From NCBI RefSeq assembly GCF_964355755.1, contig NC_092676.1, positions 7,169,888 to 7,233,887 of the forward strand: DNA of 64,000 bases, written 5' to 3'. The position numbers and the translations under genes were made by a program. Every line of letters starts with the position of its first letter. Position 1 is the stretch's first letter. The DNA comes from Antedon mediterranea. Its lineage: Eukaryota > Animalia > Echinodermata. Shown here one piece after another: positions 9,327 through 64,000 of this stretch. The notes below the pieces were generated by a model. The model saw only the letters and a list, made by a program, of their open reading frames with translations. It was not told where the DNA came from and did no database searches.

Positions 9327-9447
9327 GTAAGTTTTCAACAATTTATTGCCATAAAAGTATAATAATATTAATATTTATGTAGGCCTAAAGTAAATTATTA
9401 TCTAGGCCTATATAATTTATTATCATTGTGTTCTGTTCTTTTTACAG

Positions 9448-15469: not shown

Positions 15470-15759
15470 GTGAGTGCGCTTCCTTCCCCCCCTCTAAGCA
15501 TGTCGTTTGTTGCTAAGCAACAGTTGCATTTGTTTTCTGTATTGTGTACAGTGGTGATTAGTAATACCTCATCATCATTATTAACACTTATTAATATAAT
15601 TTGGATTCTATGCATGATAGTAGTAAATTGGAAACCATAAGCTCAGAAAATTCCCATCGAATCAAGTCGATGTTGCCACACAAACAATCCACTGGAGGAA
15701 TCTAGGAAATAATGCATAATAATCTCTCCTTTGGTATCTATTCAGGGGGAACCACTATT

Positions 15760-18394: not shown

Positions 18395-18497
18395 TTTGAT
18401 AGAAGCAGTAATAACATTTGGTGCTGTGTGGTCAGTGTTTGGTTTAGCGTCTTTCCACACGTATCTTGTGTGTAAAAGTCAAACAACCAATGAAGAT
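18395..18497 (+). CDS. ZDHHC14: ZDHHC14 alternative exon 6b (SLIEAVITFGAVWSVFGLASFHTYLVCKSQTTNED)
   Basis: U12 branch site TTCCTTGAC at 18376-18384, AC acceptor at 18393-18394, GTAAGT donor; same length (103 nt) and phase as 6a, no stops. Confidence 0.87.
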
Positions 18498-19329
18498 GTA
18501 AGTGAACATCAATGCCATTTAAATCCTATTGTATAGAATCACTGGGCTAATAACTGAATCTTACTGCCCTTGGTGGGCTAATACCAGAGTTGCTCTGATA
18601 AATACAAACAATACAGCTTACCCTTCATTTGGGACATCCCTATCCCCTATCCCTGGCCCATATATAATTTTATTAAAACCAAAATCAATTGTGCTTTATA
18701 ACTGTCCAATCACACTATATTAATCTTCTATTATTCTTCTGTCTGACACTATATAATACTGTCAACAGTATTCAAATTTGTACATAGTCACTGAGCTAAT
18801 AACTGAATCGTACTTCCCTCGGTGGGCTAATATCAGAGTTTCTCTAAGTAATATATTTTAACCTTCCTTTGGGACATCCCTATTCTCGGTACACTCCTAT
18901 TAAAGGGACTCTTTCTTTTGAAATGAAAGAAGAGAATTATATTTTATTTAATACCATATTTAATGTACGTGACCTATCCAGTTCCAGTGAAAGGAACTGA
19001 TCTTTAAGGGTCCTAAATAAAACAAATCCAAACAAAGCAAATTTACAGTGGCCTTTTTTTGTAGGCCATGTCATAAAAGATTAACAGTTAGTGTCCCAAT
19101 TATTACAACCCCTAAATGCTCCAATTCTCGTAATGCAGCCTCTTTAACCTGAAACCCAAATACTGGCAGCCATTCACAAAGCATGACTCATGGAACAGGG
19201 TCATGGGTGAGAAGAACATTACATGAAAACTGTTACAAGAGAACACCCACCGTCAAATTAATCAATCTATTAGGGGACACCTTCAGGACCTAAGAAAGTG
19301 TCCTCTAAAACTTGGTTGGATTAGTGTAA

Positions 19330-19491
19330 AGCTAGTCTGTCTACACTTCAAACTAGTTGGACAAACAAAGTGTGATGTTCCCAAATATGGTAGTGATATT
19401 CCCAAATATGGTAATGATATGACATCATCATGTCTATATATGGGCACATCAAATTTGTTTATCACATAACATTTGATAGTGTAGACAGAGC
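19330..19491. mobile_element. PIF/Harbinger-like MITE copy
   Basis: Same TIR and internal sequence as 29143-29266, more diverged. Confidence 0.72.
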
Positions 19492-19591
19492 GTCAAAACT
19501 TATTTTTCCCCTCGTTATTTCTCAGTTATGTCCAGAAGGGTTGTAATGTATTTTATTGATTTAGTTATTTTTGATTTTTTTTCTTTCGTAG

Positions 19592-19701
19592 ATTAAAGGA
19601 ACGTGGTCAACAAAGCGGCAACGTGATAATTTCAATCCATTTAGTCATGGAAATGCGTTTAGCAATTGTTGTGTTGTGCTCTGTGGTCCCATGCACCCTA
19701 G
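19592..19701 (+). CDS. ZDHHC14: ZDHHC14 exon 7 ([37 protein letters not shown])
   Basis: PaCCT-like NPF..G...NC motif; CGTAG acceptor, GTAAGA donor. Confidence 0.93.
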
Positions 19702-21799
19702 GTAAGATGATCATAATTAAATCAGTATAATTGTTTCTTACTATTATACTATTACAATGGGCTGTACGCTTAAAGCTTACAGTACTGCCCCTTCATACTT
19801 TTATATTTTATTTTTAATTTTGAAATGTTACTTTTCTTTTTCAAATGAATTTTTAATCATTGTTTTTATATGTACGATTCATGTAAATAAAAGTGATTGA
19901 TTGAAAAAAAAAATTTGCCCGGTTCTTCCCTCTCTCCCCTCCCCCTCCCCCCCTTCCTCAGTTTTTAAAGGCATGTCTTTTTAATATAAAATAATGAATT
20001 TTTATTTTTCTGCAACCCGACGGATTGTTTTTATCATTTCTGAAATATTTAGCCTCACTAATCTATAATGCTGGATCTGCCCCTGTTTAGTTATCAGTTG
20101 GTACAATATAATTATGCCGTTCGGAATTGTGCAAAGTCATCTTTCCATTGTTGATGATATGAGCTAGTACAAGTGCATTATACAGTACACTGATCCTGTT
20201 CTATTTACATCAACAGTTAACAATAAATACAAGCTTATATTAAACATTTTGTGTATATGATATATATGTATTGTAACCAATTATAAATTATTCATGCATA
20301 CAAATAATCATACAGTACCACTGTTATATATTTTAGTATTTTACACGTACTGTACAGTATATCATTAACTTGATTTATATACTCCTCCAATGTTAACTTG
20401 CCAAATTGTCATAAAATGTGCTTATAAAATGTAATGGGTCCTCCTTGTAATTTATTACAGTAATATAAAAAGAAATTATCTAGGAGTGTTTAAAGAAATA
20501 TGTAGAGATTATTGACAACATTTGCAATTGCACATCCTTATCAATTTGCATGAAATTCATCAATGCAACCCAATGGTAGATTCATTCCCCACAAACAAGG
20601 CACGTTAAGTTATTAGATCAAAAAATAATTGCTGTTTTCATTTCTCATTGAATATTCATAACAGACTCTACAGTATGTTAAACCCATCTGACAAGCGGAG
20701 TATTAGACAAAATAACACTCTGTTAATTACATATCAGTCAGAACCTATAAATAATGTAATATAACCATTAATTGGATCGATCCATTTCATATGATAATCA
20801 ATATTTTAAGAAGAAGTTATCTAGTCAAAGCCTATTCAAAACTTGCGTCTCGTTGTGTGCAATGAAGCGTGATAGTTAATTACTCAATGTGACAGGTCGT
20901 ATGTTTAGTTTTCTAATTATATAATGAAATTCTACCTATGGGAACAGCTATTAGAGCATGTATTCAGAGGTTCTTGGTTCCACCCCAGAATAACTAGTGA
21001 TTTTTATTTTTTCCACTTGAAGCATTCTCATCAGATTTAATATTACCATTTCCACATCCAATAATCAAATTGTTTGTCCTATTAAGGACTTTAAGATTTT
21101 CAACTATGTCGACTTTGACGTCATTACATCATTTTGAGGTGTTGCGCATGTATCTGGTGGTTTCCCTCATTTACTAGCTGCCTTGAGAGTAAGGTTTACT
21201 ATCGATCTGATGTATACACGTCATAATCTGATGCCTCCGCACTTTAGTGTCCACTGTAGTTGTCGTCATCGTGAGGTGGTTTCCCGAATGATCGTAAAAT
21301 CAAAACGGTGCTGGGTATGACCAACTAGCGTTCTTGTCACCAACTAGTCATCCATTCATAGAAGTACTGATGTAGTAGCCTATCTGTACGGTGACCATAG
21401 AATGTGACCCGAGACATGACTACTGTAACTACGACTTTTAGTTGATAGAAGATTGAAAAAAGTGTTAAGAAGAGTTGTACTGTATGTGGATGTTTAATGA
21501 AATTATGTCAATAATGTTTACACACTAGGCATATAAATAGTAATGTTTGTTAGTAAAAATAATTTTGAGTTAAAAAGAATAAGATATAAGGAAGAAAAGC
21601 AAAGAGACTATGGAGCGGCTATTCCTGAATATACAATTATTAAGTATCGTAGATTTAAATTATAAATTTTAGGCGATCTTGTCAAAGGTCAAGCGCCTAT
21701 AGCCTGCCACGTTTCGATATTCAATATTGAACTTGACCTGCCGTCGAGTGAAATCTAAAACTTGTAATTTCATATGCACCGAGCAAAAACTCGCCAATT

Positions 21800-21963
21800 A
21801 CAGGATGGATCATGCTTATAATAAACTAAGTCTCGTTTGAGGCTTAGGGAGTGGAGTTGAAAGAGTCCCGAGTTACAGTACAACCCTAGCACTACAGTAG
21901 GTCAGGATTGAACCCCGGACCGGGATTAAAAGGCAAGCATGTTAACCACTAAGCTACAACTCC
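21800..21963 (-). mobile_element. Decayed tRNA-derived SINE
   Basis: Minus strand reads GGAGTTGTAGCTTAGTGGTTAA (A box) ... GGGTTCAATCCTG (B box). Confidence 0.6.
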
Positions 21964-22100
21964 ACTACCTCAAGAGGGAACGCATCACCGGTTGATGTGA
22001 ACCACGCTTATGTTCACACTAAAGGTCCCTATTATTAACTTGTCACCTAACAATTTTTCATACATCCAATTATAAACAAACGCTTTAATTTATCTTGCAG

Positions 22101-22203
22101 CTTGCTAGATCGTCGAGGTTTCTACGTTCCTAATGTAAATGTAACTCAAACGGAGAACGTAATACCAAGGGGCGTGCCCGCCCTACCTCTACCAAACAAA
22201 GGT
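22101..22203 (+). CDS. ZDHHC14: ZDHHC14 exon 8 (LLDRRGFYVPNVNVTQTENVIPRGVPALPLPNKG)
   Basis: TGCAG acceptor; SLxDRRG motif; GTAAGT donor at 22204, with an alternative GT 2 nt earlier. Confidence 0.88.
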
Positions 22204-22912
22204 GTAAGTATTTATACAACGACATTTTTGATTGGTTGATTGCGGAATGAAAATAATATATTAACCCACTGCGCATGCACTCTCTCAATGACTATTCAGA
22301 ATATAATTTGTTGGGTTTTTTTTTTATGAATGATTTCTAATGTCAGTTAATTCAGAATTTTTAAAATAAAGATGAGATATATGAATTTGCTTATGATACA
22401 GTTGTCACATGTGTTACATATATGACACTGTATTACAGAATTTGCCTCTGGTACAGGTGTCACATGTGATACATATATGACACTGTATTACAGCCTATGA
22501 TACTGGCTGGCATATGTGGAGATACAGTTCAGAGAATCAGGTGTAGACACAGGTGTTTAAGCACCTCTACAAAGCTGTCGGAAATTTATCGCATAAATCT
22601 ATCAATTTAGTTTACCTTATAAAAACAAAATGAATGTATTATACAAGTTATATTCTGAATAGACTTAATCTTTTTGCCAACATGTCTTTCCTAATTCTTT
22701 GTTTTTTTTATTATTATTCTATAAACATTTTATTTATGCATGGTTGTAGTATAGCGGCGTCAACTCTCTCAAACAAACTGATACTTATATTACACACACA
22801 TTTCTGCTTCTGAGATTGTGGCTATCCAACAATGCATTGTGCTTCCATAAGAAAGGTTAAAATGTTGCTTTTATGTTTTTTTATTAAACGGTTTTATTGT
22901 TATAACTTCTTA

Positions 22913-23035
22913 AGCCTTGTCTACACTATAAAAAAAAGTGATATGCCCATATGGACATGATAATGTCATATCACTACCATATTTGAGCACATCACACTTT
23001 TTTTGTCAAACTAGTTTGATAGTGTAGACAGAGCT
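22913..23035. mobile_element. PIF/Harbinger-like MITE copy
   Basis: Same TIR; TTA TSD on both sides. Confidence 0.8.
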
Positions 23036-26000
23036 TTAGTCAAACTCTATTGCCGATGCTATTTTTGAATTTGCAACATGAATATGTTTATGCTAATAAC
23101 ACTCTCTATTATAAACATCAATTAAGTCGGGTAAATTAGTAAAAAGCATGCCTTTTTTTAATAAACTTGATTAAAAAGAGAAAGAATATTTTGTCCATAA
23201 AATGTTCTTAATAACAAAGAGAGCATCTTGTGTGTTTGTCTTGTAAATGGATTTCCACAGGTCGAAGGTTAAATCTGCTATTTCATAGGCCAATAAACTG
23301 TTATGAGATGTTGCTTGTGTCTATGTTATGTGAACTGATTTACTACTTCTTTTTTACACAATATGATTCTCCAATTCTTGGTATGCTGTCTAAATATGGA
23401 ATGAAAATAATACAGTATTTAATTTATTACCAACTTTTAATGTTTTTAGGAAGAAGGTGGATATATGAACCCATTGTGGGTTCTCAAGAAACAAAATGTT
23501 TGCAAGGTATTGCATGAAGAATGAGAATGTTAGTTAATAGCCTGCGCACATCAACAAACAAGTTATTCATTACGTTTTTAGAATACACAATTCATACAGT
23601 ATAGGCTGTCATTTTAGAATACTAAATTCATAGGCTGTCATTTTAGAATACTAAATTCATAGGCTGTCATTTTAAAATACACAATCCATACTGTAGCTAA
23701 TATACAGAAAGCCAGAAATAACAGTTACTGTTTTTTTAAGTACTAGAGAGAACCCATTATTCACTGATTATAGTTTTTTTTGCGGAAAAATCATTGATTG
23801 ATCTGTGAATACAACAATAGTACATTAATGAATATTTTTTTATTAGGACATAAATATATTGTTAAATACTGTACTCAAATGATATAATTAAAATGGTACA
23901 ATCATGCCTCATTTAGACAAAAGACATCGTTAACTATTTTTAGTACGTTGTGATTGGTTCATTGTCATTAAGCATATCTTCATTTACATTGTACATACGG
24001 TTTATTTGAATGACCATTTCAATGTTCATACCCACATACCGTACTGTAGGTAAAGATCACACTATCAAACTTTATGTGACAAAAAATGTGATGTACACAT
24101 ATATGGACATGATATCACAACCATATTTGGGCATATCACTATCAACCATAGAGATATTATAATATTTATATGCACTACCTTATTTGGGTGCATTTTACTT
24201 TTCTACTTTCTATAGACAAAAAGAACAACATTTTTAGCAGAGATAGTGAAAAACTAAAGTTTTATTTTATCTAATAATATAATAAATATATAATAATATA
24301 AAATAATCATTTCTATCTAAGATTTATATATTTATTTATTTTTAAATACATAACAAATATTTGCTTATGTTATTTTGAAAACTGACTTAAGCAAAATGAT
24401 TCACGTAAAATTATTTCTTAGCTAAGTATGAGTGATAAAATATGATCCTAGACTAAACCTATGTGTTGACAATGACAAAGGTTGAAAAGGAATACATATA
24501 GTAGACGTGACAGTCTATAGTATAAGGCATCAAATATTGATAAGGAATGATTATGTTCAGCAATAATAATATTGATTACTGTATGGCATATATCATTAAT
24601 CAATACAGCACTGTGATGAAACATTCCATGAAGAACTTTAGTAGAATGTACAATTGAGAAAATAATACTAGGCAAGCATAGGTTGAAAGGGTTCCAGTCA
24701 AGTTGGCCCAATTGCATCCTGGTTGATGGTTGATTGTAATTCTGATTACATTAAGGCTTATTGAGGATCCAGGATTTTGAAGTAGGAGGTGGGGGGGGGG
24801 GGGGGGGGGCCAGGTCCTAAAAATGGTGAAATGAAAGACTGAGCTTAATTCGATGTCCTATATTTTGTATTACAATTTGGGAAATTCCGGCCGTTGGGGC
24901 CGACTGGGTCCCCCTTAGATCTTCCCCTGCTCATCATCCAATTTTAAGTTCTGGATGCATTCATCTGCTGACCAGGGTTCAATTAGTCCGATCCCTAACC
25001 GATGTTAGCGACGAAGACATATTCCCTTACTTTGATTTGGGTTTTTTTGGCATGGTTGGAATCCCTTTTATCGTATTAGTTTTCGTACAGCGCTTCACAA
25101 CATTAGGCGCTATATAAATCCATGATATTAATATTATTCAACAACATTTTTCCACAATACAGAAGTCTCCTTTTTTATAGATTAGATAAATTAATAATTA
25201 AATTTCTTTAAATCAAATTAACATAAAAGGTGGTGTTATCTGCTTCTTGGCATGTTACTTTGAGAATGTTTGCACTGGAAACTATTTCGTTTGTTGAATT
25301 GCATAATTTCTATTACTAAATGACTAAAGATGAAAAATTAATGAATTTTTTTTTTTCGATCCAGTTTCTGTCAAAGGAAATAACTATTAAAATGGCAAAT
25401 TAAAAAGAAAAATTAAAAAATATTTTTTTAGGAGGACAATCTTTAATATAATCAGGGAAGAGTGTAATTTCACTCAAATATGATTTTAAATTGAATACAG
25501 GATGTTACAGTATGTTTCTATGGCCTTATCAATATCTTTCCATTGATTATGGCATGGCTAAATACATTATTTTAATGTAATCTCAAATAACATTGTTTAA
25601 TTTAACATAGTAGGGTTTTACCTGAACCAACTGCATAATATACTAATATAACATAAACGTTTGTTGTTTAAACGTGCTATGGTAGCAAATAGTGCATTAT
25701 TTATTCCTGATAAGAATCATGGTTTCTTTAAATTCATAGCTACCCTACTATATATATACTATGGAGATAATATAAGCCGAAGACTAGAGGGCGTACTGCT
25801 GACTAGAGGAGCAACCAACAATATGGCGGCCATGAATCTGAAAAAATATTCAGTGTATCAAATAATACATTAAAAACCACATAATGTAGAATGCGTTCAC
25901 GTTTATAGTCTCAATACGCTGCATTGTGTATTGTACGTGAGAATTTAAAGAATACTCATGCTGTCTATGCTCAACACAGACGTAGTAGTGCGTGACTGCG

Positions 26001-28520
26001 TATGGGCGAATCAAATTGCAGCTGTCATCTTGTTGGTTCCCTCTCCATGAAAAATCACTTTTTTAACTGCTATAACATTGAAGTCTGCCCTCTAGAGAAT
26101 CTATACTACCTCAATGATAGCAACCCATTTACCTTTAACTATTTATAAAATTGAGTGAAATAATTGTTTCAGCATTAATTTATACTGTGTGGTTACTGTC
26201 TAGTCTCTTTGCCATTCAAATATTTCTAAAATTTTTGAAAAACAAACAAGTCCCTGGAATTTAAATTAAAGTTGAAGATGAATTGTCCCCCAAAAACCTG
26301 AAAAATAAAGATGAATAAAATCAGACTTTGAATAGGCCATTTTGCAGTTTTAATAAAGTTATTCACTTCTGTAGAAAAAAAAATGTAAACAAATAAGTTT
26401 TTACACATCAATACTGTACCTTCTTGCTGAACCCTTTTGTTGCTATAGCAGACCTATCACGCATGCATAAAAAGCACATTTCAAATGCCTAATATTATTT
26501 AGATAAAAATATTAAGTGCTAGCCTATAAATAAATTAATGAATATTATAAATTTATTATTTGTTAATTTTGTTTGCTAATCATTATTTATCCACAAATGA
26601 CAATATTTGTCCAGTATCATATATTTTGTAATACAGCATCACATGTGTATCACACGCGGTGCCTGTATCATAGCAGGTTAGGTTACGCAGGGTTCCAAGG
26701 GTGTGATACAGTTATCACATGTGAAACACATGAGCTGCTGTATCATAGAATTGCCTATGATACTGGACAACTTCAGATACAGTAGTAAGAGTTGGCTGGT
26801 AGAATAGACATACCAGTGTATCCATATAACTGAAAGATGATATTTTAATTTATAATTTATCAATATTACACATTTGATTTGATTTTTATATTAGTACATA
26901 GTTTGCTTATTTGTATCCATTTTAACCTAATTCGTTGCTTTTTCCTGTTTTTGTTGCATGCCAAAAAAAGGATCCATCGCAGGCTGGTCACAAACCCATT
27001 ACTAACAATCAGTAAAGAAGAGATATCACCATGCATGGTGTTATTACCGTAAGTTTACCATCGTACCGAGCAAGCCCCTTTCCTCACAGACTATTTATCA
27101 GTACATGCATGGTGTGGTGATTAGCAGCTTACAGTAATTTTAAGTAGCCATCTAATCTGTAGGTCTCTTGGCTGTGTCAAGATACTTGTAAGTTTTTAGC
27201 AGTAATTTGCCTCGTAAAGGCAGATTCAGTCAGCCTATTTTTTAGCTATACTACTTCTGTCGTAAATTGTGCGCAATTATTCAACTAGAAATTCAAACAA
27301 ACCTCTTTGATTGGTAAATAAACATGTTGCGTGCTCTCTGTCGCATCTGGTGGGAAACAGCCTTTCGAGGCTACAGTATGTATAGTTTGGTATAATTAAT
27401 GCATAGAATATATTTTAAGCACTGCACACACATCTATAAGAGCTGAGTGCATTCTAGAGCAATTTCAGGTACGTAAACATGCAGAAAGTACATCCTGTGT
27501 TCAGACTTATTCCAACGTTTCCAGCAATCCCACAAACCATCAATCTTATGTAATGGTTCAAATTTTTTAGAAGCCTCCTTTGTGTACTTGGTGTGTTGGT
27601 AAGAAATTACAAAGTTATTTGTAAAGTTTATGATTTTTATTAAATTACATTAGGTGTTAAAGCCGTATCTATATTTGTGTTATACTGGATACTAAGATTA
27701 GTAATTTAGCTAACAATCATATTTATTGAGGAAAGGGGAATTGTTTAGTTTATTTATTTTGTTTAAAAATTTAAATTGGTGCCATGATTTTTTGTTAAAC
27801 TGTATCAAATTTGGTGATCTTTCCTTTATCTGTTTCCTTTTCTGTTTGTTTCCTTTCACCTATTGTTGCTTGGCAACCATTTCTGTTATACCATTTGTAC
27901 TCCCATCGTCAATCACCTGTTATATGCTTATTAATCAGTATTTACAATGCTAACTTCATAAATAATATCATCAATGCAGAGGTGTATTTTGCATATTAAA
28001 TTCGGTTCAAATAAAATGTAAAACAAATTACAAATTTGTCTGTTCACAACATGACAGAGCAATATATATTACTGTATGTATAAGTTTTTTTACTACTGTA
28101 AAACCCCTATTAATGGGACACCTTTGGTACCCAACAAAGAACCCATATTATTATACTTATATTATAATATAATAAGTTGCTAATATATTTGTGGAAAGTT
28201 ATTTTAAAAATATACTATTTTTTAATTAGCGTTTAGAATTATATATGCCACGACGCCAATGCATTGATATGGTTTAATTTTATTTCCTTATTTTCTGTAC
28301 TATTCACATGTTTTTCTCACTTGCAACTAACCTCATTTCCATCAGCTAATAATTATTACTATACTAACTACTTTGTTCAAATTTATCCAAAACCTTTTTA
28401 AAGATTCTTGTTTTTTTCTATAGAATTCTTAACTCGGTATATTCCAATTCTATGTACATAATGGGTTTTCAATTATTTTGTATTGAAATGTAAAGGAAAA
28501 TGGAGATCTACCTGTTTCAG

Positions 28521-28783
28521 GGGCTGTCATCCCCATGCCAACACTCACCACAACAATCAACATGGAAACGAACATAGAGACAGCCCAACTTGTCAGTAAA
28601 GACAACGGCACACCTAATTCAACACCCACAAAGTGTCAGTACCAAGAGACTAATATTGATAGCATGACACCGACTACGAAACGGAAATCAATGCCAGAGA
28701 TGCAGCCACTTCTGGATGAGGAGCCAGTATCACCAGATGGAACATCCACGTTGGAGAGACGGTTTATGCAGAGTGACTTATAG
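28521..28783 (+). CDS. ZDHHC14: Probable ZDHHC14 terminal exon (...AVIPMPTLTTT...RRFMQSDL*)
   Basis: TTTCAG acceptor; GC-richer S/T/P-rich open frame ending in S-D-L (class I PDZ-ligand-like). The frame link to exon 8 is not resolved. Confidence 0.6.
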
Positions 28784-28934
28784 GACCAGTTGTAGAAGCT
28801 GTGTTCAGATTAGCACTTTTAATTTACCATTATTATGGTCAGGAGACATATTGCCTGTTCAGATTTAAATAGATATTTACCTGGAAATTCCTGGCCAAAG
28901 TCAGCAATATTGATCCTAGAAGCCAACTTACTGA

Positions 28935-37957: not shown

Positions 37958-39398
37958 AATAAACTAAAAAAACCTGCTCATTCACTCTTACTTATAGTTT
38001 GTCAAGGTTTGAGTTAGTTATCAATCATAGTTTGGGGAGGGATTAAGGATCATAATGGATACAAAGTAACACCTTGATATTGGTGTATTATTTTAGCTTT
38101 GATTTGGTGAGAGTAGCATCATCTTGCTCTTACTGTAAAAGGGATGATAGACGTGGCACCACCTATTTTCTTTAAAAAATATTGTTTGTCTTCTGCCTTC
38201 ATTTTATCATTCAACATTTTTGTATATAATCATGCAATATAATAGCACTCTTCAGTGACTACATAGTTTGTTAACCCTGCAATATTCTGGTATGTGACGT
38301 GTCTATGAAAGGAAACAACGATAGGCTCTACCAAATCTGTTGTTAACGTTTCTTTTGATCAAAAGTATTCGTGTGTTATTTTTGGATGATCTGTTAAATT
38401 ACAATACACACTAGTATAGGGTTAAATTGTTGTATTTGAGTTGTTAACCATATTAGGCTTACATCGTATCTGTTTGACGATATTTAGTTTAATAAAGTAC
38501 ATTGTATATTACATTAGAAAATCATAGAGGCCGTAGGCCTAATATCTGTGCTTACACCACACAATCACCATGGAATAGTAGGAAATAGAAAAAAACCTGT
38601 CTTTGGTAAAAGAGCAATGATAAATAATACTAAAATCAAAGTACATTACCCTTTAATTTGGTTCTGTGTTAATGCTCTGATTAGCAGCAACACTAAATTG
38701 TTTCAATATGTTGAATAACTGTTTATTAGTATAACTGCACTGCATTTGTCTGGTATTGTATTTGTTCCTCTGGTGTTTCATTCCTGCTATTGTTGTTGTT
38801 GATATTGCAAAGTTAGCAAGCAATTGCATGAGTAACACAAATATTTACATGCCTATTTTTAGGTACCTCGCATGAGAAGTTCGATATGTATGAATTGGGA
38901 TGTATTTTTTATACTGTTCAGAGATTATTCCATCGCCTTATTTTTGTTAACATGTTATTTTCATACTACACGGTTAGTTAACTAACGGGTATTCTATCTT
39001 GTAGGAATCAAAATGTATCCTATACAAGCACTGAAATAACAGCATGCTTCATTTCAAGTCGAACAATTGAACAATCTAAATTATTACGGAAGCGCGCCGG
39101 CCATGAATAGGACCGTTCATTTTTACAATTGCGCGACAGCTCAATGTTTACATATTGCGAAAACTTTATTACAAAGTGTGAAACAAGTATTACAAAATGA
39201 GACAATTACTTCTGACGTTATAATTAATCTCACCCGTTAGAAACGAAATTATCAAATAAATCAACAATTAAGGCCCTGCATAAAATCAGCATAACAAACG
39301 TACAATGTGATATGTAATTTCAATTCAAGACATTATGATGATGTTGCTCATGTAAATTATGATTTTTTTGCAGGCAATAAATTACACACTTTGAAAAA

Positions 39399-39933
39399 AT
39401 GTCAGAAATCGAAGACAAATTTAACAACTTGAAAACTGAACTCAGTAAGCAATATGAAGGTGAACACTACAAGTTGCTGAAATTTTGCTTACTTGATTAC
39501 TTGGATCTAGCAGACCTTACTAATGAGGAGTACATAGGTCATAATTTATTCAATAAACTCGATAGCACTGGTGGTCCTGGTTTGATCACACCTCACGATG
39601 TCACATTGTTGTTGGAGATTACAAAACTAACAGGTCCGAAGGATGCCGAACGTCTTGTAACCCAGTATATGAACGACAACAATATTCAACATGTTGGAAA
39701 GAATAAGTTGTCATCATACAGGAGACGACTGTTTAGGGCTGTCAGACAAGCTGAATCTCCTGCTGCATTAAAGAGAGTTACTGCCTTCTATCGACTAGAA
39801 GTGTTCGAGTATACCAGTGTTTGGGATGTAGTATTGAAATTAGAAAACGACACAATTTTACCAGACAAGGTAAATGAGTTTGGAAGTCTTCTTGGAAAAC
39901 GTGCACAGGACGAACTAGGTCTACTGAGTGCTG
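39399..39933 (+). CDS. NLR exon: N-terminal tandem death-effector-domain-like region
   Basis: Pattern F..LK.ELS......LLKF.L...LF..L.....I.P.D..LL.EI followed by LSSYRRRLF resembles caspase-8/cFLIP DED1-DED2. TGCAG acceptor at 39373 upstream of the ATG; G|GTATGT donor, phase 1. Confidence 0.8.
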
Positions 39934-41046
39934 GTATGTATTTGATTCATTTTGTGTTTGTTGTAATGTAGAATATGAACGTTGTAGTTACAATTATAAT
40001 TCTATTTTTACTTGTAGTTTCTCTTACTTCTTAAGTAATGCCAATTTACACAAACGAGCTGCACAGATAAACAGAAACCCGTGTAGCTTGATAGTCCGTT
40101 CAAACTACGGTTTGACGTAGACAAAATTAGAACATTCTTCTTTAAGACCCATCTGAAGAAGAGGGCTCAAGAACAATATCAATTGCAAGAGCAGCGCAAA
40201 CCACCATTATTGTCCACAAAGCTAAAAATATTATAAAGACAAAAACACCTCAATCGTTCTCTAAGTATGCGAGTCTTGGACATTAACAGCCGAACTACAA
40301 TAAAGAACCGACGACGACCATCCAGCAAAAAACAGCAGATAGGCGCGCACCAAATAATAAATCCTCCTTACTTTTTTGTTTATCAAAAGTCTAGCTGAAA
40401 TCGATAAGTAGGTCTAGAGTCTGTACCTACTTACCAAAGTGAATCTGTAATGATGGACAAACTACTCTAGGTTCTGGCCTATTACCACAGTGACTTCTAT
40501 ACTATATATTATGTATTAAGTAGTAATAACGTCCGAATGAGTCCGAACATTTCTGTAGAATAATTATACATTGATTACCAACGATTACCGCCACTTAATT
40601 ATCTGATGGAGGCCACTTAATTACCCTTTTCCATCTTATAAACATTATTTTATAAGCATAATTACATTATGCAATTTACGAATATCATTGTTTTACATGT
40701 TACGTTTTAAAGTTATTTCGTGTAAATAAATAGCACACATCTCGTCTGACATTAGTTCAAATAAATCAATATTGAACCTCTTTATCGTTTAAGAGGGTCC
40801 CAGTCGTACATATTTGTTTTAAATAAAATTGATGATGTTGAATAACTGTACGGCTTTTTTTCTTAATCGTATAATGATTACTTTGATCTAAACTAATAAA
40901 AAGGAGATGGCAATTGTTCTTTAATTTTATTATTTATATTACAACGCTTACAAGTAAAGATGAACATTCTAAAACTGCTTCAACTGTATACAATGTTCTA
41001 TATAATGTACTACATGTTTTTTAATATATAAGTTTTTGTTTGTTAG

Positions 41047-44000
41047 GAATCATAGAAAAGTATCTCCATGACAGACAACAATCATTGTGCCAGAAAGAAA
41101 ATCAGGAATTTACACCGTCAACAATGAATCCAAAATACACTGTTAGCATGAAAGTCTTCACTGAGTTGGATCTTTTAAAAAGAAATAAAAACGAGAAAGA
41201 CAGCCAGCCAACAACACTGTCATCATTTCTAACCAGTATAGAATCCAAATCTTCGTGTAAAGTCCTGATAGATGGTGAGGCTGGTATTGGTAAAACAACA
41301 TTATTAAAGTATTTAGCAAACAAAAGCACATCTGACGAAGAACCAATTCCGTTTAAAGGTAAAATTGTGTTTTTATTTAATGTAAGGGATTTAGAAGAAG
41401 GCAACAGCATCTTTCATCTGATTGAAAACCAACTGGATATGGAAGATTTCAATCTAAAAACTAAACTGCCAAAGGATTCAAAGTTGATTACGCAATTTGT
41501 AGACAAACATGATGACAAAATTGTGTTATTATTAGATGGTTTAGATGAATTACGAGTTCAAAATGATAAGTTGATAGATCTTTTTAAGGGCAAAACATTA
41601 GAAAAGAGTGTTGTGCTACTTACGTCTAGATCAGAATACGTGGACGTAGATACATTCATAAGAAAGTCTGATGTGCAAGTGACAGTAAAAGGATTTAACA
41701 AAGATAGCATTGGGAGGTATATTGAGAAGCATTCTGAGCATTTTACCAATCGTGATAAGATGAATGACCTTATGCAAAAATTAGTGGCTGACAAAAACGT
41801 TTTAGAATTGTGCAAAAATCCGTTGATACTTCTCTCAATTTGTAATATTTGGGAAGACAAAAAAAATCTTCCATCTAATTATGCCGACCTTTTCAAAGAA
41901 ATATTTTGCTGCATAATAAACCAATTCATTTCCAAGCATGGCCACCCGAATAATGATCTTAAAAATGAAGAAAGCGTTTTTGATCGTTTAAAGCAAAATT
42001 GTTGCTGTGTATTGAGCATACATACAAACCATTCCATTGAAAATAAAGACAACAAAATTATCGAATTTGAACATATTCCTATAGAATTTGTAAATGCTAT
42101 GTCTTCCTTAGGAAAGTGTATGTATAATAGTTTAAAACAAAATAAACTTTCAATCAAAAAGAATGATTTGAAAGTTACTGGAGATATAGAGATGGTTGAC
42201 ATGGCCCTTAAACTGGGATTTGTATACGAAAAGAAATTAAGTTCAAGATCTAAACCTGAGAGTGGAATTTACATGCCTACGCACAAATTAATACTAGAAT
42301 CACTAGTAGGGTTTTATTTATTCACACTTTGTAAAAAAGATGCAAGGCGCATTGAGTGGGATGTAGTAACAGATTGTAAGAATTTAACAATGGCCAATAT
42401 GTTTGCAGTCGGGTTTCTTGGTGCTGATGCAGGTAAATTCCTAAAGCACTGGCTTACAGACCAATTATCAACATATCGTTATTTGATACATACTAACTTG
42501 AAGTATGTTAAAGATGAATATCGTGTTGTTGTGGCAGATACATTACAACAGCACATGGTTAGTTCAGGATTAAATCAACATACAGATGTATCAAAGTCAT
42601 TGGAATATGTTATTGCCCACTTTAATCCGAATTCTAATTCAAATGTTGGTGAGCATTTTATACATCGTATATTGCAACTCAGTAGCATGGATCTTAATGA
42701 GCTTGATTTGAGATCATTTTGTAATACATTATCATTAGAAAGTAAAGGAAAAATTCTTGCACACATTGGATTTTTCTTTACATCCACACTTGACCTACAT
42801 AAATGCAATCTGTCAGGTGATATAATAAAATGCATGATTGATGAGTGGGTTAAAATGGGTGATAAGCTGGAATTAAAACGTATTATAATCAGTCAAAATA
42901 ATCTCAACAACATTGATGCAAAATTACTGCATAAGTTAATGACGTCGGCCCCTCTTTACCTTTCATTTGAGATGATTGATTGTAATTTATTGGGTAAAGT
43001 AATGAATGACATTAGCATTCCAGGAGATATACAAATATGTATGCTTAATATCGCTAAAAACAATCTCAGTGACATGAATGGAAGTTCACTAGGTAATTTT
43101 TTAAGTAAAATTCCTCAACTGCTAACACTTGACATGCATGATTGCAAACTATCAGGTGACATAATGAATAAAATGATAAACGTCTATACTGGAGGTGAGT
43201 TACAAGAGATTTGTATTGAGAAAAATGACTTCAGTGGAATTGATGGTACTCTTCTTGGATGTTTCTTGAATAATGCTAATAATCTAATTAAACTTGACAT
43301 GCATGGTTGTAAACTATCGGGTGACGTAATGAATGAAATGATGAGAGTGTATATAATAGATGAATTGCCCTCGAATAGGTCAGGCTTGCAAGTGCTTGAT
43401 ATTGGGAATAACAATATCAGTGGCATTGATGGTACTTTACTTGGTACTTTCTTAAGTAAGTCTCCTAAACTGAGTATACTTGACATGCATTATTGCAATC
43501 TATCAGGAGAAGTACTGAATAAATTAATGATTAAATTGAATGAGAGAAATGAGCTGCAATTACGAGAGCTTAATATTGGGAATCAAGATATCAGTGACAT
43601 TGACGGTTTTTTATTTGGTAATTTCTGGAGTAATTCTCCTAAGCTGCGTATATATGATCTCCATGATGGCAATACATCAGATGAGACCCAATTTCAAGCA
43701 ATTGATAAAGAGAAAAATTACGTCAGAAAAATTGACGGTACTTCATTGGGTACATTCTTGAGTAAACCTTCCAAGCAAAAAATGGACGAAATAAAGGATC
43801 ATACTGTAATGAATGAAATGGACAGAGTGTATGCAAAAAGAGAGTCCCAATTTCAAAACTACAATTTTATGAAAAACAATTTCAGTGACATCAATGGTAC
43901 TTTACTGGGTTCTTTTGTGCGTAAGTCTTCTCAACTAAGTAAACTTGTCATGCATGATTGTAAACTATCAGGTGACGTACTGAATAAAATGATGGATACT

Positions 44001-47000
44001 TATGCAAGAGATCAGTTAGAATTACAAGATATTTATATTGGGAATAATGATATCAGAGACGTTGATGGTGTTTTACTTGGTACTTACTTGAGTAGGTGTC
44101 CTAACCTCCATATACTCAACATGTGCAATTGCAGCTTATCAGGGAACACAGTTAATGAAATGATTAGAATATATGCAACTTCAGACGAGTTACAACTGCA
44201 ATTGCTTAATCTTGGGAATAATGATATAAGTAACATTGATGGTAATTTACTTGGTACTTTATTGAGCAAGTCTTCAAATTTACTTAAACTTTACATGCAA
44301 AATTGCAAATTATCAGGTGATATCATGAATAAAATAATGAAAGTCTATGCAGGAGATGATATAGATTTACAAGTGCTCTCAATTTATGGTAATGATATTA
44401 GTGACATTGATGGTACATTACTGGGTACTTTCTTAAATAAGTCTCCAAAGCTGCATACACTTGACATGCATGATTGCAAACTATCAGGTGATGTATTGAA
44501 TAAAATAATGAATGCGTATGCAAGAGATCAGTTAGAATTACAAGTGTTGTCTATTGCGAATAATGATATAAGTGACGTCGATGGCTCATTACTGGGTACT
44601 TTCTTAGGTAAGTTTCCTAGGTTGCGTGATCTTCGCATGTATGATTGCAAACTATCAGGTGACGTAATAAATAAAATAATGGATGCGTATGCAAGAGATC
44701 AGTTAGAATTACAAGTGTTGTCCATTGCGAATAATGATGTAAGTGACGTCGATGGCTCATTACTGGGTACTTTCTTAGGTAAGTCTCCTAGGTTGCATGA
44801 TCTTCGCATGTGTGATTGCAAACTATCAGGTAACGTAATGAATGCAATGATGGATGCGTATGCAAGAGATCAGTCTGAATTGCAATCGTTGTCCATTGCG
44901 AAAAATGATATTAGTGACGTCGATGGCTCTTTACTGGGTACTTTCTTAGGTAAGTCTCCTAGGTTGCGTGATCTTCGCATGTATGATTGCAAACTATCGG
45001 GTGACGTAATGAATAAAATAATGGATGCGTATGCAAGAGATCAGTTAGAATTAGAAGTGTTGTCCATTGCGAATAATGATATTAGTGACGTTGATGGTAC
45101 TCTACTTGGTACGTTCTTAAGTAAGTCTTCTAAGCTGCTTGAACTTTACATATATGATTGCAAACTATCAGGTGACGTAATGAATACAATGATGGATGCG
45201 TATGCAAGAGATCAGTCGGATTTGCAATCGTTGGTCATTGCGAAAAATGATATAAGTGACGTCGATGGTTCATTACTGGGTACTTTCTTAGGAAAGTCTC
45301 CTCGGTTGAGTGATCTCCACATGCAGGATTGCAAACTATCAGGTGACGTAATGAATACAATTTTGGATGCTTATGCAAAAGATCAGTTGGAATTACAATT
45401 GTTGTCCATTGCGAATAATGATATAAGTGACGTTGATGGCTCATTACTGGGTACTTTCTTAGGTAAGTCTCCTCGGTTGAGTAATCTTCACATGCATGAT
45501 TGCAAACTATCAGGTGACGTAATGAATACAATTTTGGAGGCGTATGTAAGAGATCAGTCGGAATTAGAAGTGTTGTCCATTGGAAATAATGATATAAGTG
45601 ACGTTGATGGATCATTACTGGGTACATTCTTAGGTAAGTCTTCTAAGTTACTTGAACTTCACATAGATAATTGCAAACTATCAGGTGACGTAATGATTAC
45701 AATTTTGGATGCGTATGCAAAAGATCAGTTGGAATTACAAGTGTTGTCCATTGCGAATAATGATATAAGTGACATTGATGGCTCATTACTGGGTACTTTT
45801 TTAGGTAAGTCTCATCGGTTGAGTAATCTTCACATGCATGATTGCAAACTATCAGGTTACGTAATGAATGCAATGATGGATGCGTATGCAAGAGATCAGT
45901 CTGAATTGCAATCGTTGTCCATTGCGAAAAATGATATTAGTGACGTCGATGGCTCATTACTGGGTACTTTCTTAGGTAAGTCTCCTAAGCTGCTTGAACT
46001 TTACATAGATGATTGCAAACTATCAGGTGACGTAATGAATGCAATGATGGATGCGTATGCAAGAGATCAATTGGAATTAGAAGTGTTGTCCATTGCAAAT
46101 AATGATATAAGTGGCGTTGATGGCTCATTACTGGGTACTTTCTTAGGTAAGTCTCCTAGGTTGCATGATCTTCGCATGCGTGATTGCAAACTATCAGGTG
46201 ACGTAATGAATGCAATGATGGATGCGTATGCAAAAGATCAGTCTGAATTGCAATCGTTGTCCATTGCGAAAAATGATATTAGTGACGTCGATGGCTCTTT
46301 ACTGGGTACTTTCTTAGGTAAGTCTACTAGGTTGCGTAATCTTCGCATGTATGATTGCAAACTATCAGGTAACGTAATGAATGCAATGATGGATGCGTAT
46401 GCAAGAGATCAGTCGCAATTGCAATCGTTGTCCATTGCGAATAATGATATAAGTGACGTCGATGGCTCATTACTGGGTACTTTCTTAGGTAAGTCACCTA
46501 GGTTGAGTCGTCTTCGCATGTATGATTGCAAACTATCAGGTAACGTAATAAATAAATTATTGGATGCGTATGCAAGAGATCAGTCAGAATTACAAGTGTT
46601 GTCCATTGCGAATAATGATATAAGTGACGTTAGTGGCTCATTATTGGGTACTTTCTTAGGTAAGTCTCCTAGGTTGCGTGATCTCCGCATGCATTATTGC
46701 AAACTATCAGGTGACGTAATAAATAAATTAATGGATGCGTATGCAAGAGATCAGTCAGAATTACAAGTGTTGTCCATTGCTAATAATGATATAAGTGACG
46801 TTAATGGCTCATTATTGGGTACTTTCTTAGGTAAGTCTCCTAGGTTGCGTGATCTCCGCATGCATGATTGCAAACTATCAGGTGACGTAATAAATAAATT
46901 AATGGATGCGTATGCAAGAGATCAGTCAGAATTACAAATGTTGTCCATTGCTGATAATGATATAAGTGACGTTGATGGTACTCTACTTGGTACGTTTTTA

Positions 47001-47846
47001 AGTAAGTCTTCTAAGCTGCTTAAGCTTTACATGGTTAATTGCAAACTATCAGGTGACGTAATAAATAAAATGATGGATGCGTATGCAAGAGATCAGTTAG
47101 AATTACAAGTTTTGTGCATTGCGAATAATGATATTAGTTATGTTGATGGGTCATTACTGGGTACATACTTGACTAAGTTTCCAGATCTGCGTGAACTTGT
47201 CATAAATAATTGTAAAATATCAGGTGACGTTATAAATAAAATGATCAAAGTATATACAAATGATGAGTTAAAATTACACGAGCTTCATGTTAACAATAAT
47301 AATGTTAGTGACATCGATGGTACTTTATTTTGTACTTTATTACATAAGTCACCAAAGCTGTGTGTACTTAAATTGAATAATTGTAAACTACCATGTAACG
47401 TTGTAAGTAGAATGTATGCAAGCGGATTACAAGTGCTTGACATTGGAAATAATGATATCAGTGACATTGATGGTACATTACTAGGAAGTACTTTGTATAA
47501 ATCGTCTAAGCTGCGTATACTCAACATGAATAATTGTAAACTACAGGGTGATGTAATGAATGAAATGATCAGAGCGTTTGCAAGAGACGAGTTACAATTA
47601 CATGAGCTTTCAGTTGGGAATAACTACTTCAGTGACATTGACGCTATTCTACTGTGTGTTTTACTGAATAACTCTCCTAAACTGCGTACACTTGATATGA
47701 ATAATTGCCAACTATCAGATGATGTAATTAATGCATTGATCAGAGTTAAACCCAAAGAATTGCAATTGTTTACTAACAATAATGATATCAGTGACGTTGA
47801 GAGAGAAATGATTATTCGTTCGATTGACTTGTTTAATGAGATATAG
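41047..47846 (+). CDS. NLR large exon: NACHT NTPase + long ribonuclease-inhibitor-like LRR array (spliced protein about 2444 aa)
   Basis: Walker A GEAGIGKTT, Walker B LLLDGLDE, sensor-1 LLTSR, CKNPL; LxxLxL/MxxC/N LRRs in 57-aa pairs. The GTTAG acceptor is phase 1, matching the DED exon. Confidence 0.93.
44460..47230 (+). repeat. Coding tandem array of 16 near-identical 171-bp (57-aa, two-LRR) units
   Basis: A GCAAGAGATC-like anchor recurs at 44520, 44691 ... 47085 in exact 171-bp register. Confidence 0.95.
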
Positions 47847-48681
47847 AGAACGTCGTCATTAGATGATTTACAGAGCCTTGGGCAACAGTTTTTGTCAAAT
47901 ATCAATCTGAATACTTTTCACCAGTTTGAGTAAACACAACAGTGAAATTGGAGTGAATTTACTGTTTAGTGATTTTATAATTGAATTGATGAAGAAGATG
48001 GAGAGGTTAGATTGGTCTAATATGTGGGAGGAGCTTAGCCACCAGCTCGGTATACATGATACACACATTAATTACCCATTAAATTAATACTTTTATCACT
48101 TCATCACACTTTCTAAACATTAAGTAAAATGAATAGCCTTAAAAAAAACAGAAATTTGCTATGATTTTAACATGACAAATTTGTTTGACAATGTGCAATC
48201 TTATGTTTTACTTCCTGGCAAACATTACGATACTATTGCCTAGTAATACCGATTTTGATTTTTTTTTAAATGATATGAATGCATGGCGTGAAGTTGTGGA
48301 GTCAGATATAAATATCTTTCGATGTTTTGTTGCTTTCAATGCTGACACAATTTTGCATTAGGCCTAATACGGCGTATAGAAAACCTGAAAACAACTTCTA
48401 ATTGGTTTTGATGTAATTTGTGTTTGCTAATATGAATCAAAAATAAAATGTTAAACGATTATTGCCTTAACTGAAAATAAATCTTGACAAATGCCTCCAG
48501 GGAATATTGAATGGACACGTTCGAGTGAATAACAACAAATATTGCTACGCCCTCAATTTGATTGTATACAGTTGTAGTTTACTATTGTTTTAAATTTTCT
48601 AATTTCTATGTGTAAATACGTTCAATTATATTGTGAATAGTAACATTATATAACTATTATATTAAACTATAATATAAAAGT

Positions 48682-49036
48682 CATATGGCCGAGCGGTTAA
48701 GGCAGGGGCGCCGTTTACCGTATCTAAAGAGCCAACAACAACATTGGCAAGGGTTCGAGGCCGACTCGCTCCTAGTTCTGGTGGTGGAACAAGTCTTCTC
48801 GGATAAGGACTATAAACCGTAGGTCCAGTGTACACAGTTATAACCTGTGTGTACTTTAAAGAACCCAGTTCATTATTCGAAAAAGAGTAGGGGGTTACCC
48901 CGGTGAACTGGTTCACACAATAGCCCCTGTATCAGGAGGATTACCACCTATCTGATAGGACAGTGATTAATTCACTATTGGTAATCCTTGGCCACATTGC
49001 CTAAAGACATAAAATAAAAATAAAATAAAATAAAAG
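48682..49036 (+). mobile_element. tRNA-derived SINE with a Deu/Nin-like central domain and (TAAAA)n tail
   Basis: A box TGGCCGAGCGG, B box GGTTCGAGGCC, core CTCGGATAAGGACTATAAACCGTAGGTCC, A-rich tail. Confidence 0.75.
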
Positions 49037-62597: not shown

Positions 62598-64000
62598 CTA
62601 AATGTAAATCTGACATGGTGGGACTATGAACGGAAGTGTATTTATATCTGGAAAAAGTTTTTGGGCACGTGAAATTTCCCCCCTTGATAAAAGATCCGCC
62701 AAAACATTATCGACGTCGGGAATGTGCGTTGCACGGAAGTGGATATTATGGCGGAGGCAAATTAATACTAAACGTCGTAGAAGTCGCAAAAGCAAGGTAT
62801 CTTTAGCAGATTTCTTGTTGATAACAGCCACAACCGCTGAATTATCACAGCGAAATAAAATTCGGTGGTTTGCCAGTTCCGAGCCCCAAACTTCCATTGC
62901 TATGACTATGGGAAATAATTCAAGCACCGCGATTGACAGACCATTAAACGTACTACTCCATTTAATAAAGAACCACTTATTGTGGAAAACAGCTGCGCAT
63001 CCGATGGATGCCGCTGCATCGGTATATAGTCGTAGCGTAGTAGAATTAAACCAGTTATGTGGAAGAATTAGGGCTTTCCCGTTGAAGGATTCGAGAAAAC
63101 CTAGCCACATATGTAAATCGTCTTTTACCTCGCGCGACAGGCGAATTAAATGATTTGGATGTTTCGCTAAGGATAGGAGATTTATAAGACGGCGTAAAAA
63201 GGCTCTACCTGGTAGCACCACGCTACAGGCGTAATTCAGCAGGCCGACCATCGACTGCATGTCGCGCAGCGTAACTTTCTTCCTGGCTAAAAATTGGTTA
63301 ATTTTAGTGATTGTCTTCGTAATTTTTGACATAGGTAAACGACATTCCATGGAAACAGAATCCACCTCTATGCCGTATATCACAATGACTGTAGTTGGAA
63401 AAACGGTCTTCGAATCTTTAATGGGTACCCCAAGTGTGTTACAAAGGGAGATGAAATTAGTAAGTGCATTTTGACAAAGATTTGAATGTTTAGGACCGAC
63501 AAAGAAAAAATCGTCCAGGATATGAGATATATCCGGGATATTAAATTTTGTACGCATTATCCAAACTAATGCTGTACTGAACGATTCAAAAATGCTACAT
63601 GAACGACTGGCCCCCATCGGAAGACAGCGATCGTAGTAGTATTTATTATTCCACAAGAAACCCAAAAGGTGATAATCGCAAGGGTGGATTGGAATGATAC
63701 GAAACGCATCCTCGATGTCGGTTTTTGCCATTAAAGAACCGGGCCCGTTTTTTAACACCAAGTTAATTACGACATCAATGGTGTCGTAACTAACTTGGGA
63801 CGCATCGTGCGGAATTCCAGAATTGACCGAGGCCCCGCGCGGGTACGATAAGTCCTGGATAATCCGGAACTTACCCGATTCAGCTTTTGGTACAACCCCT
63901 AAGGGCGAACTAACAAAATTGTTGAGCGGAGGTACCGAGAATGGACCGGCTAACCTACCGAGGTTCAAACCTTTTGTTATAAATTCTTCTATTTGTTCAG
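62598..64000 (-). mobile_element. DIRS/Ngaro-type (tyrosine-recombinase class) retrotransposon RT-RNase H ORF, truncated by the window end
   Basis: SPLGVVPK..GKFRIIQDLS, KTDIEDAFR, LPMG, ILDDFF (RT); YTDAA, IAVLEL, CDNSAVV, HIP...N..AD.LSR (DIRS-type RNase H); open frame with no stops. Confidence 0.9.

What the first reader, a model, noticed from the sequence alone, without database searches (positions are those of the whole stretch)
41047..47846. NLR with an intronless, internally homogenised LRR array showing mosaic variation at exposed positions
Seen: about 5 kb of LRRs (roughly 29 two-LRR units) in one 6.8-kb exon. The central 16 units are exactly 171 bp and nearly identical, and the flanking units are diverged. 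Differences cluster in the xxLxLxx strands: PRLRDLRMY, PRLHDLRMC, PRLSNLHMH, SKLLELYIY, PRLSRLRMY in one repeat type and LQVLSIANN, LQSLSIAKN, LEVLSIGNN in the other. The same variants recur in different combinations in non-adjacent units; for example the KLLEL/KLLKL type occurs near 45130, 45645, 45990 and 47015. Established: these strands form the concave ligand surface of RI-like LRRs, vertebrate NLRP LRRs come as 171-nt exons, and fungal NLRs diversify highly conserved internal repeats by recombination. Inference: unequal crossing-over or gene conversion within the exon shuffles a small library of modules to generate specificities, heritably or possibly somatically.
Basis: partly seen in the sequence, partly recalled or inferred. 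Interest (0 to 1): 0.72.

Follow-up and report, generated by a model that had tools for sequence, protein, structure and literature searches.

The report
Feather-star NLR with self-recombining LRR array
An immune-receptor-type gene, likely from a feather star, carries about 56 leucine-rich repeats in one unbroken reading frame; its middle repeats have likely swapped DNA segments with each other while a few residues on the predicted binding face changed unusually often, which would create new recognition surfaces over generations, as known for fungal receptors but not found described for these animals.

Summary
Window 41047-47846 is one open frame: an intact NACHT domain and about 56 ribonuclease-inhibitor-type LRRs. 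A DED-like exon lies upstream (39399-39933). The 15 core 171-bp units are 87% identical on average (81-98%), not nearly identical, and no two are the same. They are mosaics: the recombination test gives p<=0.0005, and recombination-free simulations rarely or never match it. Ten predicted concave positions hold 45% of the amino-acid variation. The excess over neutral is clear for the Cys-type strand (18 changes against 7-8 expected) but not for the Asn-type strand; the scaffold is under purifying selection. All close relatives are crinoid proteins. The closest one differs by an exact 9-unit indel and has its own, separately homogenised array; 18 of 57 relatives also have highly conserved repeats. 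This works like the fungal NLRs with high internal conservation (Podospora HET-E type), a known regime that one survey already extends to animals; my searches found no description for crinoids. Heritable recombination is the best reading. Somatic shuffling is unsupported, and variation between individuals, expression, ligand and the assembled unit order are untested.

The parts
39374..39933 (+). Predicted first coding exon (ATG at 39399), about 178 aa, death-effector-domain-like, probably two DEDs in tandem
   Evidence: ORF; AG at 39372-39373 and GT at 39934-39935; 54% identical to the N-terminus of P0005, which has a sub-threshold PF01335 match, and weakly similar (E 3e-9 to 3e-6) to N-termini of P0027, P0035, P0015 that carry PF01335; Atlas top hits are DED clusters at 0.89-0.90; no direct Pfam hit
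39934..41046 (+). Predicted phase-1 intron (GT..AG); the join keeps the frame and gives a 2444-aa protein
   Evidence: Splice-like sites read from the sequence; length by arithmetic; not seen in RNA
41047..47846 (+). Single 6.8-kb predicted exon: NACHT module plus whole LRR solenoid
   Evidence: Stop-free frame
41262..42800 (+). NACHT with helical domains; Walker A at 41274, Walker B at 41523, sensor-1 at 41616, winged-helix His motif at 42279
   Evidence: PF05729 66.6 bits, cut-off 26.7; motifs located (motif names recalled); model matches NLRC4 and NOD2 best
42762..43577 (+). Proximal diverged LRR units, colinear with the relative P0004
43578..43847 (+). About 90-aa island of two degenerate units, predicted to lie outside the solenoid
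   Evidence: pLDDT below 50 for model residues 819-908; 59% identical in P0004
43917..44087 (+). Unit at which the alignment to P0004 jumps by exactly 9 units (513 aa)
   Evidence: Offset +103 to +110 before it, +617 after it
44433..47168 (+). Homogenised array: 15 core 171-bp units (44604-47168) plus one near-core unit; each unit is a Cys-type and an Asn-type RI-like LRR
45084..45140 (+). 57-base tract shared with 46965-47021, 11 units away (one mismatch, 11 shared minority bases, six of them silent)
   Evidence: silent status read from the codon table
47169..47846 (+). Distal diverged LRR units and stop codon

Best explanation
[quoted passage not shown] Shown: the domain order, the unit structure, the mosaic pattern, the excess of amino-acid change at the Cys-type strand, the conserved scaffold, and whole-unit length differences between relatives. 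Inferred: misaligned recombination inside one exon keeps the frame because every unit is 171 bases; it copies and re-pairs strand variants and changes unit number; the long solenoid (predicted to need more than two turns) presents a variable ladder of residues to a microbial or non-self ligand; binding would release the NACHT, which would oligomerise and recruit a DED-bearing adaptor or caspase through the N-terminal domain, by analogy with other NLRs.
For: Recombination: 48% of pairs among 43 informative sites are incompatible with one tree, rising from 28% for sites within 10 bases to 65% at 61-100 bases; PHI-type p 0.0001-0.0005. In 300 recombination-free simulations the mean was 30% (95th percentile 39%), 1 of 300 reached the observed near/all ratio and 0 of 300 the near-far contrast. 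Similarity does not fall with distance along the array (rho 0.07). Selection: five x positions of the Cys-type strand carry 18 distinct amino-acid changes and no silent one; neutral simulations matched on the silent count gave 7-8, with 0 of 817 and 0 of 749 reaching 18, while the other 47 codons carry 30 against 60-68 expected. The variable positions 9, 11, 13 alternate along the predicted strand. Concerted evolution: 138 of 146 units from 11 proteins have their nearest neighbour in the same protein; core units of the window and of P0004 are 78% and 76% alike within and 61% between. Exact 9-unit indel against P0004, which also holds exact 5-unit and 8-unit block copies. Strand x positions are enriched for variation (p<0.05) in 8 of 10 testable proteins. 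Precedent: PMC4986451 and PMC13449251.
Against: One haplotype only; variation between individuals is untested. A plain count test is weak: ratio 1.9, p=0.04 for the Cys-type strand and 1.5, p=0.14 for all ten positions. The Asn-type strand is not above neutral (p 0.09-0.18), and four convex helix positions vary at the neutral rate. Two of 10 relatives (P0008, P0012) show no enrichment. The incompatible fraction drops again to 44% at 101-171 bases (expected if tracts run into the next unit, but that is my inference). The DED call has no direct Pfam or PDB hit and the two halves do not align to each other. No ligand, transcript or function is known. P0004 is only 53% identical in the NACHT region, so it may be a paralogue.
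Confidence: 0.7

Rival explanations
1. Concerted evolution without adaptive diversification: recombination homogenises and reshuffles the units as a by-product of being repeated, and the exposed strand positions only vary because they are free to.
For: Exposed x positions are less constrained in any LRR (general knowledge). Count test marginal; Asn-type strand and four helix positions fit neutrality. A related organism (B) holds both flanks at about 97-99% identity, so the locus is not visibly unstable outside the array.
Against: 18 changes against 7-8 neutral at the Cys-type strand; silent change near that strand is not raised (4 in codons 5-15, 30 in all 57); CpG decay does not explain it, since CpGs at codons 20, 28 and 48 are kept in 15, 14 and 13 of 15 units.
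Confidence: 0.15
2. The array is also rearranged in body cells, so that single immune cells would carry different unit orders (somatic diversification).
For: The frame survives any in-register exchange. Somatic change of an immune gene family is reported in sea urchin coelomocytes (PMC6563789, abstract), and somatic loss of repeats in Podospora (PMC13449251, passage).
Against: The gene is complete; no LRR donor cassettes, paralogues or pseudo-units lie elsewhere in the 64 kb; all signals seen are explained by heritable change.
Confidence: 0.07
3. The receptor is not a microbe sensor: the long solenoid would serve allorecognition, gamete recognition or as a scaffold, as NLRP5 and NLRP14 do in oocyte lattices.
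For: Fungal HIC NLRs with known function act in allorecognition. NLRP14 and NLRP5 complexes are among the fold matches.
Against: A death-fold N-terminus, a large lineage-specific family (71 crinoid relatives) and fast strand change fit immune sensing; fold matches are generic LRR matches (TM 0.3-0.6).
Confidence: 0.12
4. The mosaic order is an assembly artefact from mis-joined reads in a repeat.
For: Short-read assemblies of such arrays are unreliable (PMC12222747, abstract).
Against: No two units are identical and the longest exact shared tract is 97 bases, so long reads can span and place the units; the frame is unbroken; similar arrays occur in proteins of two other crinoid species. The strand variants and selection signal do not depend on unit order.
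Confidence: 0.05

Closest known systems
Fungal NLRs with high internal conservation (Podospora HET-D/E/R, NWD family; ANK and TPR types; PMC4986451, PMC13449251, PMC12222747)
   Same: NACHT protein with a cell-death-type N-terminus; repeats about 80-100% alike; concerted evolution; a few hypervariable positions per repeat on the predicted binding face; length change by whole repeats.
   Different: Sensor is an RI-type LRR solenoid of about 56 repeats, not WD40, ANK or TPR (no LRRs were found in fungal NLRs in PMC4986451); host is an animal; no RIP known; polymorphism between individuals and a ligand are not shown here. PMC13449251 section 12 already states that HIC NLRs occur in animals, with LRRs in its survey; its Fig. 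8 and supplement could not be seen.
Vertebrate NLRP/NOD LRRs of the ribonuclease-inhibitor class (PMC6642158)
   Same: 171-bp module with two alternating 28/29-residue LRRs; best sequence matches in the PDB are ribonuclease inhibitors (E 2e-13); NACHT region models onto NLRC4 and NOD2.
   Different: NLRP modules are one exon each and vary by splicing; here they lie in one frame without introns, are several times more numerous, and are alike at DNA level.
Invertebrate death-fold NACHT-LRR expansions (sea urchin, sea cucumber, amphioxus, sponge; PMC3879445, PMC8913654)
   Same: Lineage-specific family with DEATH/DED N-terminus; NACHT and LRRs on one exon in some members.
   Different: The passages I read describe no internally homogenised arrays or unit-level recombination, and do not treat crinoid NLRs.
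Crinoid RefSeq models, e.g. P0004 and P0005 (Antedon mediterranea), P0007 (Anneissia japonica)
   Same: Same family, same unit type, own homogenised arrays.
   Different: Annotated only as uncharacterized or by automatic NLR names; NACHT region at most 53% identical to the window protein.
Lamprey VLR assembly (recalled) and sea urchin SpTransformer (PMC6563789)
   Same: Modular immune receptors built from re-assorted segments.
   Different: VLR needs an incomplete germline gene and flanking cassettes, neither seen here; SpTransformer is an unrelated protein family.

Membership tests
NACHT-type NLR | NACHT domain with intact P-loop motifs | tested here: met
   PF05729 66.6 bits against cut-off 26.7; Walker A, Walker B, sensor-1, winged-helix His found (names recalled)
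NACHT-type NLR | C-terminal LRR solenoid | tested here: met
NACHT-type NLR | N-terminal death-fold effector domain | tested here: inconclusive
   Supported by relatives and Atlas; no direct Pfam or PDB hit; splice join not seen in RNA
NACHT-type NLR | Ligand-induced oligomerisation and signalling | not testable with these tools
   Needs biochemistry
RI-class LRR | Alternating Cys- and Asn-type repeats, 57 aa per pair, strand plus helix | tested here: met
   ribonuclease inhibitors are the six best PDB sequence hits of 23
Vertebrate NLRP exon-per-module LRR | Each 171-bp module is its own exon | tested here: not met
   Unbroken frame, units abut directly; NLRP layout from PMC6642158
HIC NLR (Podospora type) | High internal repeat identity (85% over 100 aa, or Psim of 0.7 or more) | tested here: met
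   91% self-identity over the best 114 aa; 731 of 855 residues match the column majority, 0.855, counted by hand; T-REKS itself was not run
HIC NLR (Podospora type) | Concerted evolution and shuffling of repeats within the gene | tested here: met
HIC NLR (Podospora type) | Diversifying selection at a few binding-face positions per repeat | tested here: met
   Met for the Cys-type strand (count test p=0.04); not shown for the Asn-type strand; face assignment is from a predicted model
HIC NLR (Podospora type) | Repeat-number polymorphism between individuals | not testable with these tools
   One haplotype; only a between-gene 9-unit indel is shown
HIC NLR (Podospora type) | Repeat exchange between paralogues | tested here: inconclusive
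   138 of 146 units are nearest to their own gene, but no paralogue from the window's own genome was available
Somatically assembled receptors (VLR type) | Incomplete germline gene with flanking donor cassettes | tested here: not met
   Complete frame; no LRR or NACHT match elsewhere in the window; the feature itself is recalled
Somatically assembled receptors (VLR or SpTransformer type) | Cell-to-cell gene differences within one animal | not testable with these tools
   Needs single-cell long reads

The most novel reading that the evidence does not exclude
Crinoids run a recombinational receptor repertoire inside single exons: dozens of DED-NLR genes each carry an in-frame LRR array that is reshuffled not only in the germline but in coelomocytes, giving each cell its own intracellular sensor without RAG or donor cassettes.
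Probability: 0.07. Interest if true: 0.88.

Novelty: new variant of a known kind. Interest (0 to 1): 0.5.

Why it matters
Repeat shuffling with binding-face selection is worked out for fungal NLRs with WD40, ANK and TPR sensors; for animals I found only a survey statement that such proteins exist. Here it appears in canonical animal NACHT-LRR receptors, across a family (18 of 57 testable crinoid relatives), in the earliest-branching living echinoderm class (recalled), with solenoids of about 56 LRRs here and well over 100 in P0004. That gives a concrete locus at which to ask how invertebrates widen intracellular recognition without adaptive immunity: one amplicon per animal or per cell separates fixed, heritable and somatic change. 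It also contrasts with vertebrate NLRPs, which use the same 171-bp module as separate exons.

Tried and rejected
No whole genome was held, so paralogues in the same genome could not be compared. Sequencing runs: no RNA holder listed. The array's 256 sampled words were held at shares of 0.40-0.47 (sample S1, four runs) and 0.19-0.28 (organism B, four runs). S1 matches both flanks without a difference and may be the window's own source, so it is no independent support. The low share is inconclusive: only 42-56% of the array's 31-mers lie in unbranched paths of 80-100 bases or more, and contigs drop variants. B's share is about what its 97-99% flank identity would predict, so it shows no extra divergence in the array and nothing on order. 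The run guessed to be RNA (X9) showed no joint across the predicted intron among the rows displayed (15 shown, 126 not shown). No relative of 3965-5000 aa was found (weak). The VIA structural comparison gave no result, so the RI-class call rests on sequence; Foldseek on the LRR model gave generic LRR matches, TLR8 with the best TM (0.5-0.6). CpG decay as the source of strand variation was rejected. No Rfam match or tRNA in the window; inverted repeats of 40 bases or more in 30000-64000 do not bracket the array closely (7 pairs). Dropped rows: 14 of 71 relatives were too short behind the NACHT for the internal-identity count; P0010 had too few core units for the entropy test, and only 11 proteins with regular unit lengths were cut into units. 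Earlier scan notes: nothing by place or sequence or by the first word set.

Full report
Observation. The stretch 41049-47846 is one stop-free frame of 2265 residues. Pfam finds a NACHT domain above its cut-off and many LRRs. Cutting at the cysteine motif gives about 28 regular two-LRR units and two degenerate ones; the two structure models give 19 strands up to 44603 and two per unit after it, about 56 LRRs in all. Eighteen consecutive units are exactly 171 bases (44262-47339). The 15 core units (44604-47168) differ at 3-32 positions, mean identity 87% in DNA and 78% in protein; none is identical to another.

The gene. An ORF at 39399 ends in a donor-like GT at 39934, and an acceptor-like AG precedes 41047; the phases match and would give 2444 residues. 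This exon has no Pfam or PDB hit of its own. It is 54% identical to the N-terminus of P0005, which has a sub-threshold DED match, and weakly similar to N-termini of three relatives that carry PF01335. The Atlas ranks DED clusters first, one mostly echinoderm and one named v-FLIP-like (0.89-0.90). I call it DED-like, probably tandem; the two halves do not align to each other. The NACHT keeps Walker A, Walker B, sensor-1 and the winged-helix His (names recalled), and the model of the first 1160 residues (pLDDT 80) matches NLRC4 and NOD2 best. The repeats are of the ribonuclease-inhibitor class: six RI chains lead the 23 PDB hits. A 90-residue island at 43578-43847 is predicted with low confidence outside the solenoid and is 59% identical in P0004.

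Relatives. The 34 best of 53 hits in the first search and all 37 hits in the second are proteins of the crinoids Antedon mediterranea and Anneissia japonica, so the window is likely from a feather star. The best, P0004 (3951 aa), is 53% identical in the NACHT region. Ten of 13 windows over residues 572-935 match it best at offset +103 to +110; four of four windows over 992-1103 match at +617. The jump is 513 residues, exactly nine units. Behind two shared diagnostic units each protein has its own array: 78% and 76% alike within, 61% between. P0004 holds exact runs of 447 and 397 residues at offsets of five and eight units. Of 146 units from 11 proteins, 138 have their nearest neighbour in the same protein. 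Of 57 relatives long enough to test, 18 reach 85% and 31 reach 70% self-identity over 114 residues; 14 of 71 were dropped as too short. The trait is therefore family-wide, not unique to this gene.

Recombination. Among 43 informative sites 48% of pairs are incompatible with a single tree, 28% within 10 bases and 65% at 61-100 bases, falling to 44% at 101-171; my PHI-type permutation test gives p 0.0001-0.0005, also when codons are permuted as blocks. In 300 simulations on the best tree, with site rates kept in place and no recombination, the mean was 30%; 1 of 300 reached the observed near/all ratio and none the near-far contrast. A 57-base tract is shared between 45084-45140 and 46965-47021, with 11 minority bases in common, six silent. 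Similarity does not depend on distance in the array. All six pairings of three Cys-strand types with two Asn-strand types occur.

Selection. Ten x positions of the two LxxLxLxxC/N motifs, fixed beforehand, hold 45% of the amino-acid entropy (p about 0.0001 against all or against non-core columns). The model places 9-13 and 38-42 in strands, whose alternate residues face the concave side in this class (general knowledge). Counting each variant once, the five Cys-strand positions have 18 replacement and no silent changes. A simple count test is weak (ratio 1.9, p=0.04; all ten positions 1.5, p=0.14). Neutral simulations matched on the 30 silent changes give 7-8 at these positions and never 18 (0 of 817, 0 of 749); the Asn strand (10 against 6-7) and four helix positions (6 against 6) are not above neutral; the other 47 codons are far below (30 against 60-68). 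CpG decay does not account for it. The same strand positions are enriched in 8 of 10 testable proteins, not in P0008 or P0012.

Reads. Contigs of sample S1 match both flanks with no difference, and organism B holds both flanks at about 97-99%. S1 may be the source.

Mechanism. Most likely (0.7), misaligned recombination between 171-base units, within one exon and always in frame, copies and re-pairs strand variants and changes unit number through the germline, while selection favours new residues on one strand of the concave face and keeps the scaffold. Sensing of a non-self ligand, NACHT oligomerisation and signalling through the DED-like domain are inferred by analogy. Rivals: by-product homogenisation without adaptive change (0.15), a non-microbial role (0.12, not exclusive of the DNA mechanism), somatic shuffling (0.07), assembly artefact (0.05). 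No donor cassettes or paralogues lie in the window.

Literature. PMC4986451 (passages) and PMC13449251 (passages and section 12; supplement and figures not seen) describe this regime for fungal NLRs, and the latter says HIC NLRs also occur in animals, plants and bacteria, with LRRs among the repeat types surveyed. PMC12222747 (abstract) warns that short-read assemblies of such arrays fail. PMC6642158 (passages) gives the 171-bp exon rule for NLRP3. PMC3879445 (passages) reports single-exon NACHT-LRR genes and DED-type N-termini in invertebrates; PMC8913654 (passages) reports death/DED NLRs in a sea cucumber. PMC6563789 (abstract) reports somatic change of SpTransformer genes. PMC10236652, PMC11508797 and PMC8634487 (passages) added nothing on such arrays. 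Ten searches (listings only, beyond the papers named) showed no paper on crinoid NLR arrays; the library lacks most subscription journals, so this is not proof of absence.

Verdict. A real and well-supported case of a high-internal-conservation NLR, in an animal, with canonical RI-type LRRs in one exon, shared across a crinoid gene family. New variant of a known kind; interest 0.5.

Noticed in passing
window 43578-43847: A 90-residue island of two degenerate units interrupts the solenoid and is kept in P0004 (59%); it could act as a hinge or lid, as islands do in other LRR receptors (inference).
   Followed up: partly
P0004 (A. mediterranea), residues about 1690-3951: About 40 homogenised units with exact 5-unit and 8-unit block copies and no distinct C-terminal cap units; recent expansion or assembly duplication.
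   Followed up: partly
window about 8950-28800, + strand: Exons of a DHHC palmitoyltransferase gene (PF01529 on the frames at 13898-14254 and 15299-15637), useful as a synteny marker.
   Followed up: partly
window 62598-64000, - strand: Reverse transcriptase and RNase H frame running off the window end; looks like a DIRS/Ngaro-type retrotransposon (recalled, not tested).
   Followed up: no
window about 48685-48990: A GC-richer stretch with a tRNA-like head, probably a SINE (recalled pattern); no Rfam or ARAGORN hit.
   Followed up: partly
window 41000-48000: Strong positive GC skew (0.10-0.23) over the coding exon, highest in the array.
   Followed up: no
window 43125-43595 and 47446-47494: Very many contigs from other loci lay on these LRR stretches in all runs, consistent with a large family of paralogues in the same genome.
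   Followed up: no
P0022-P0029, P0015 and others: Some crinoid relatives repeat with periods of 114-150 residues or carry several DEDs, so higher-order units and effector number also vary in the family.
   Followed up: no
window 2106-2659, 5285-5650, 6367-6694, 12673-13401, 15795-16645: Non-coding minisatellites of 15-62 bases; the ORF at 2054-2659 is a by-product of one.
   Followed up: no
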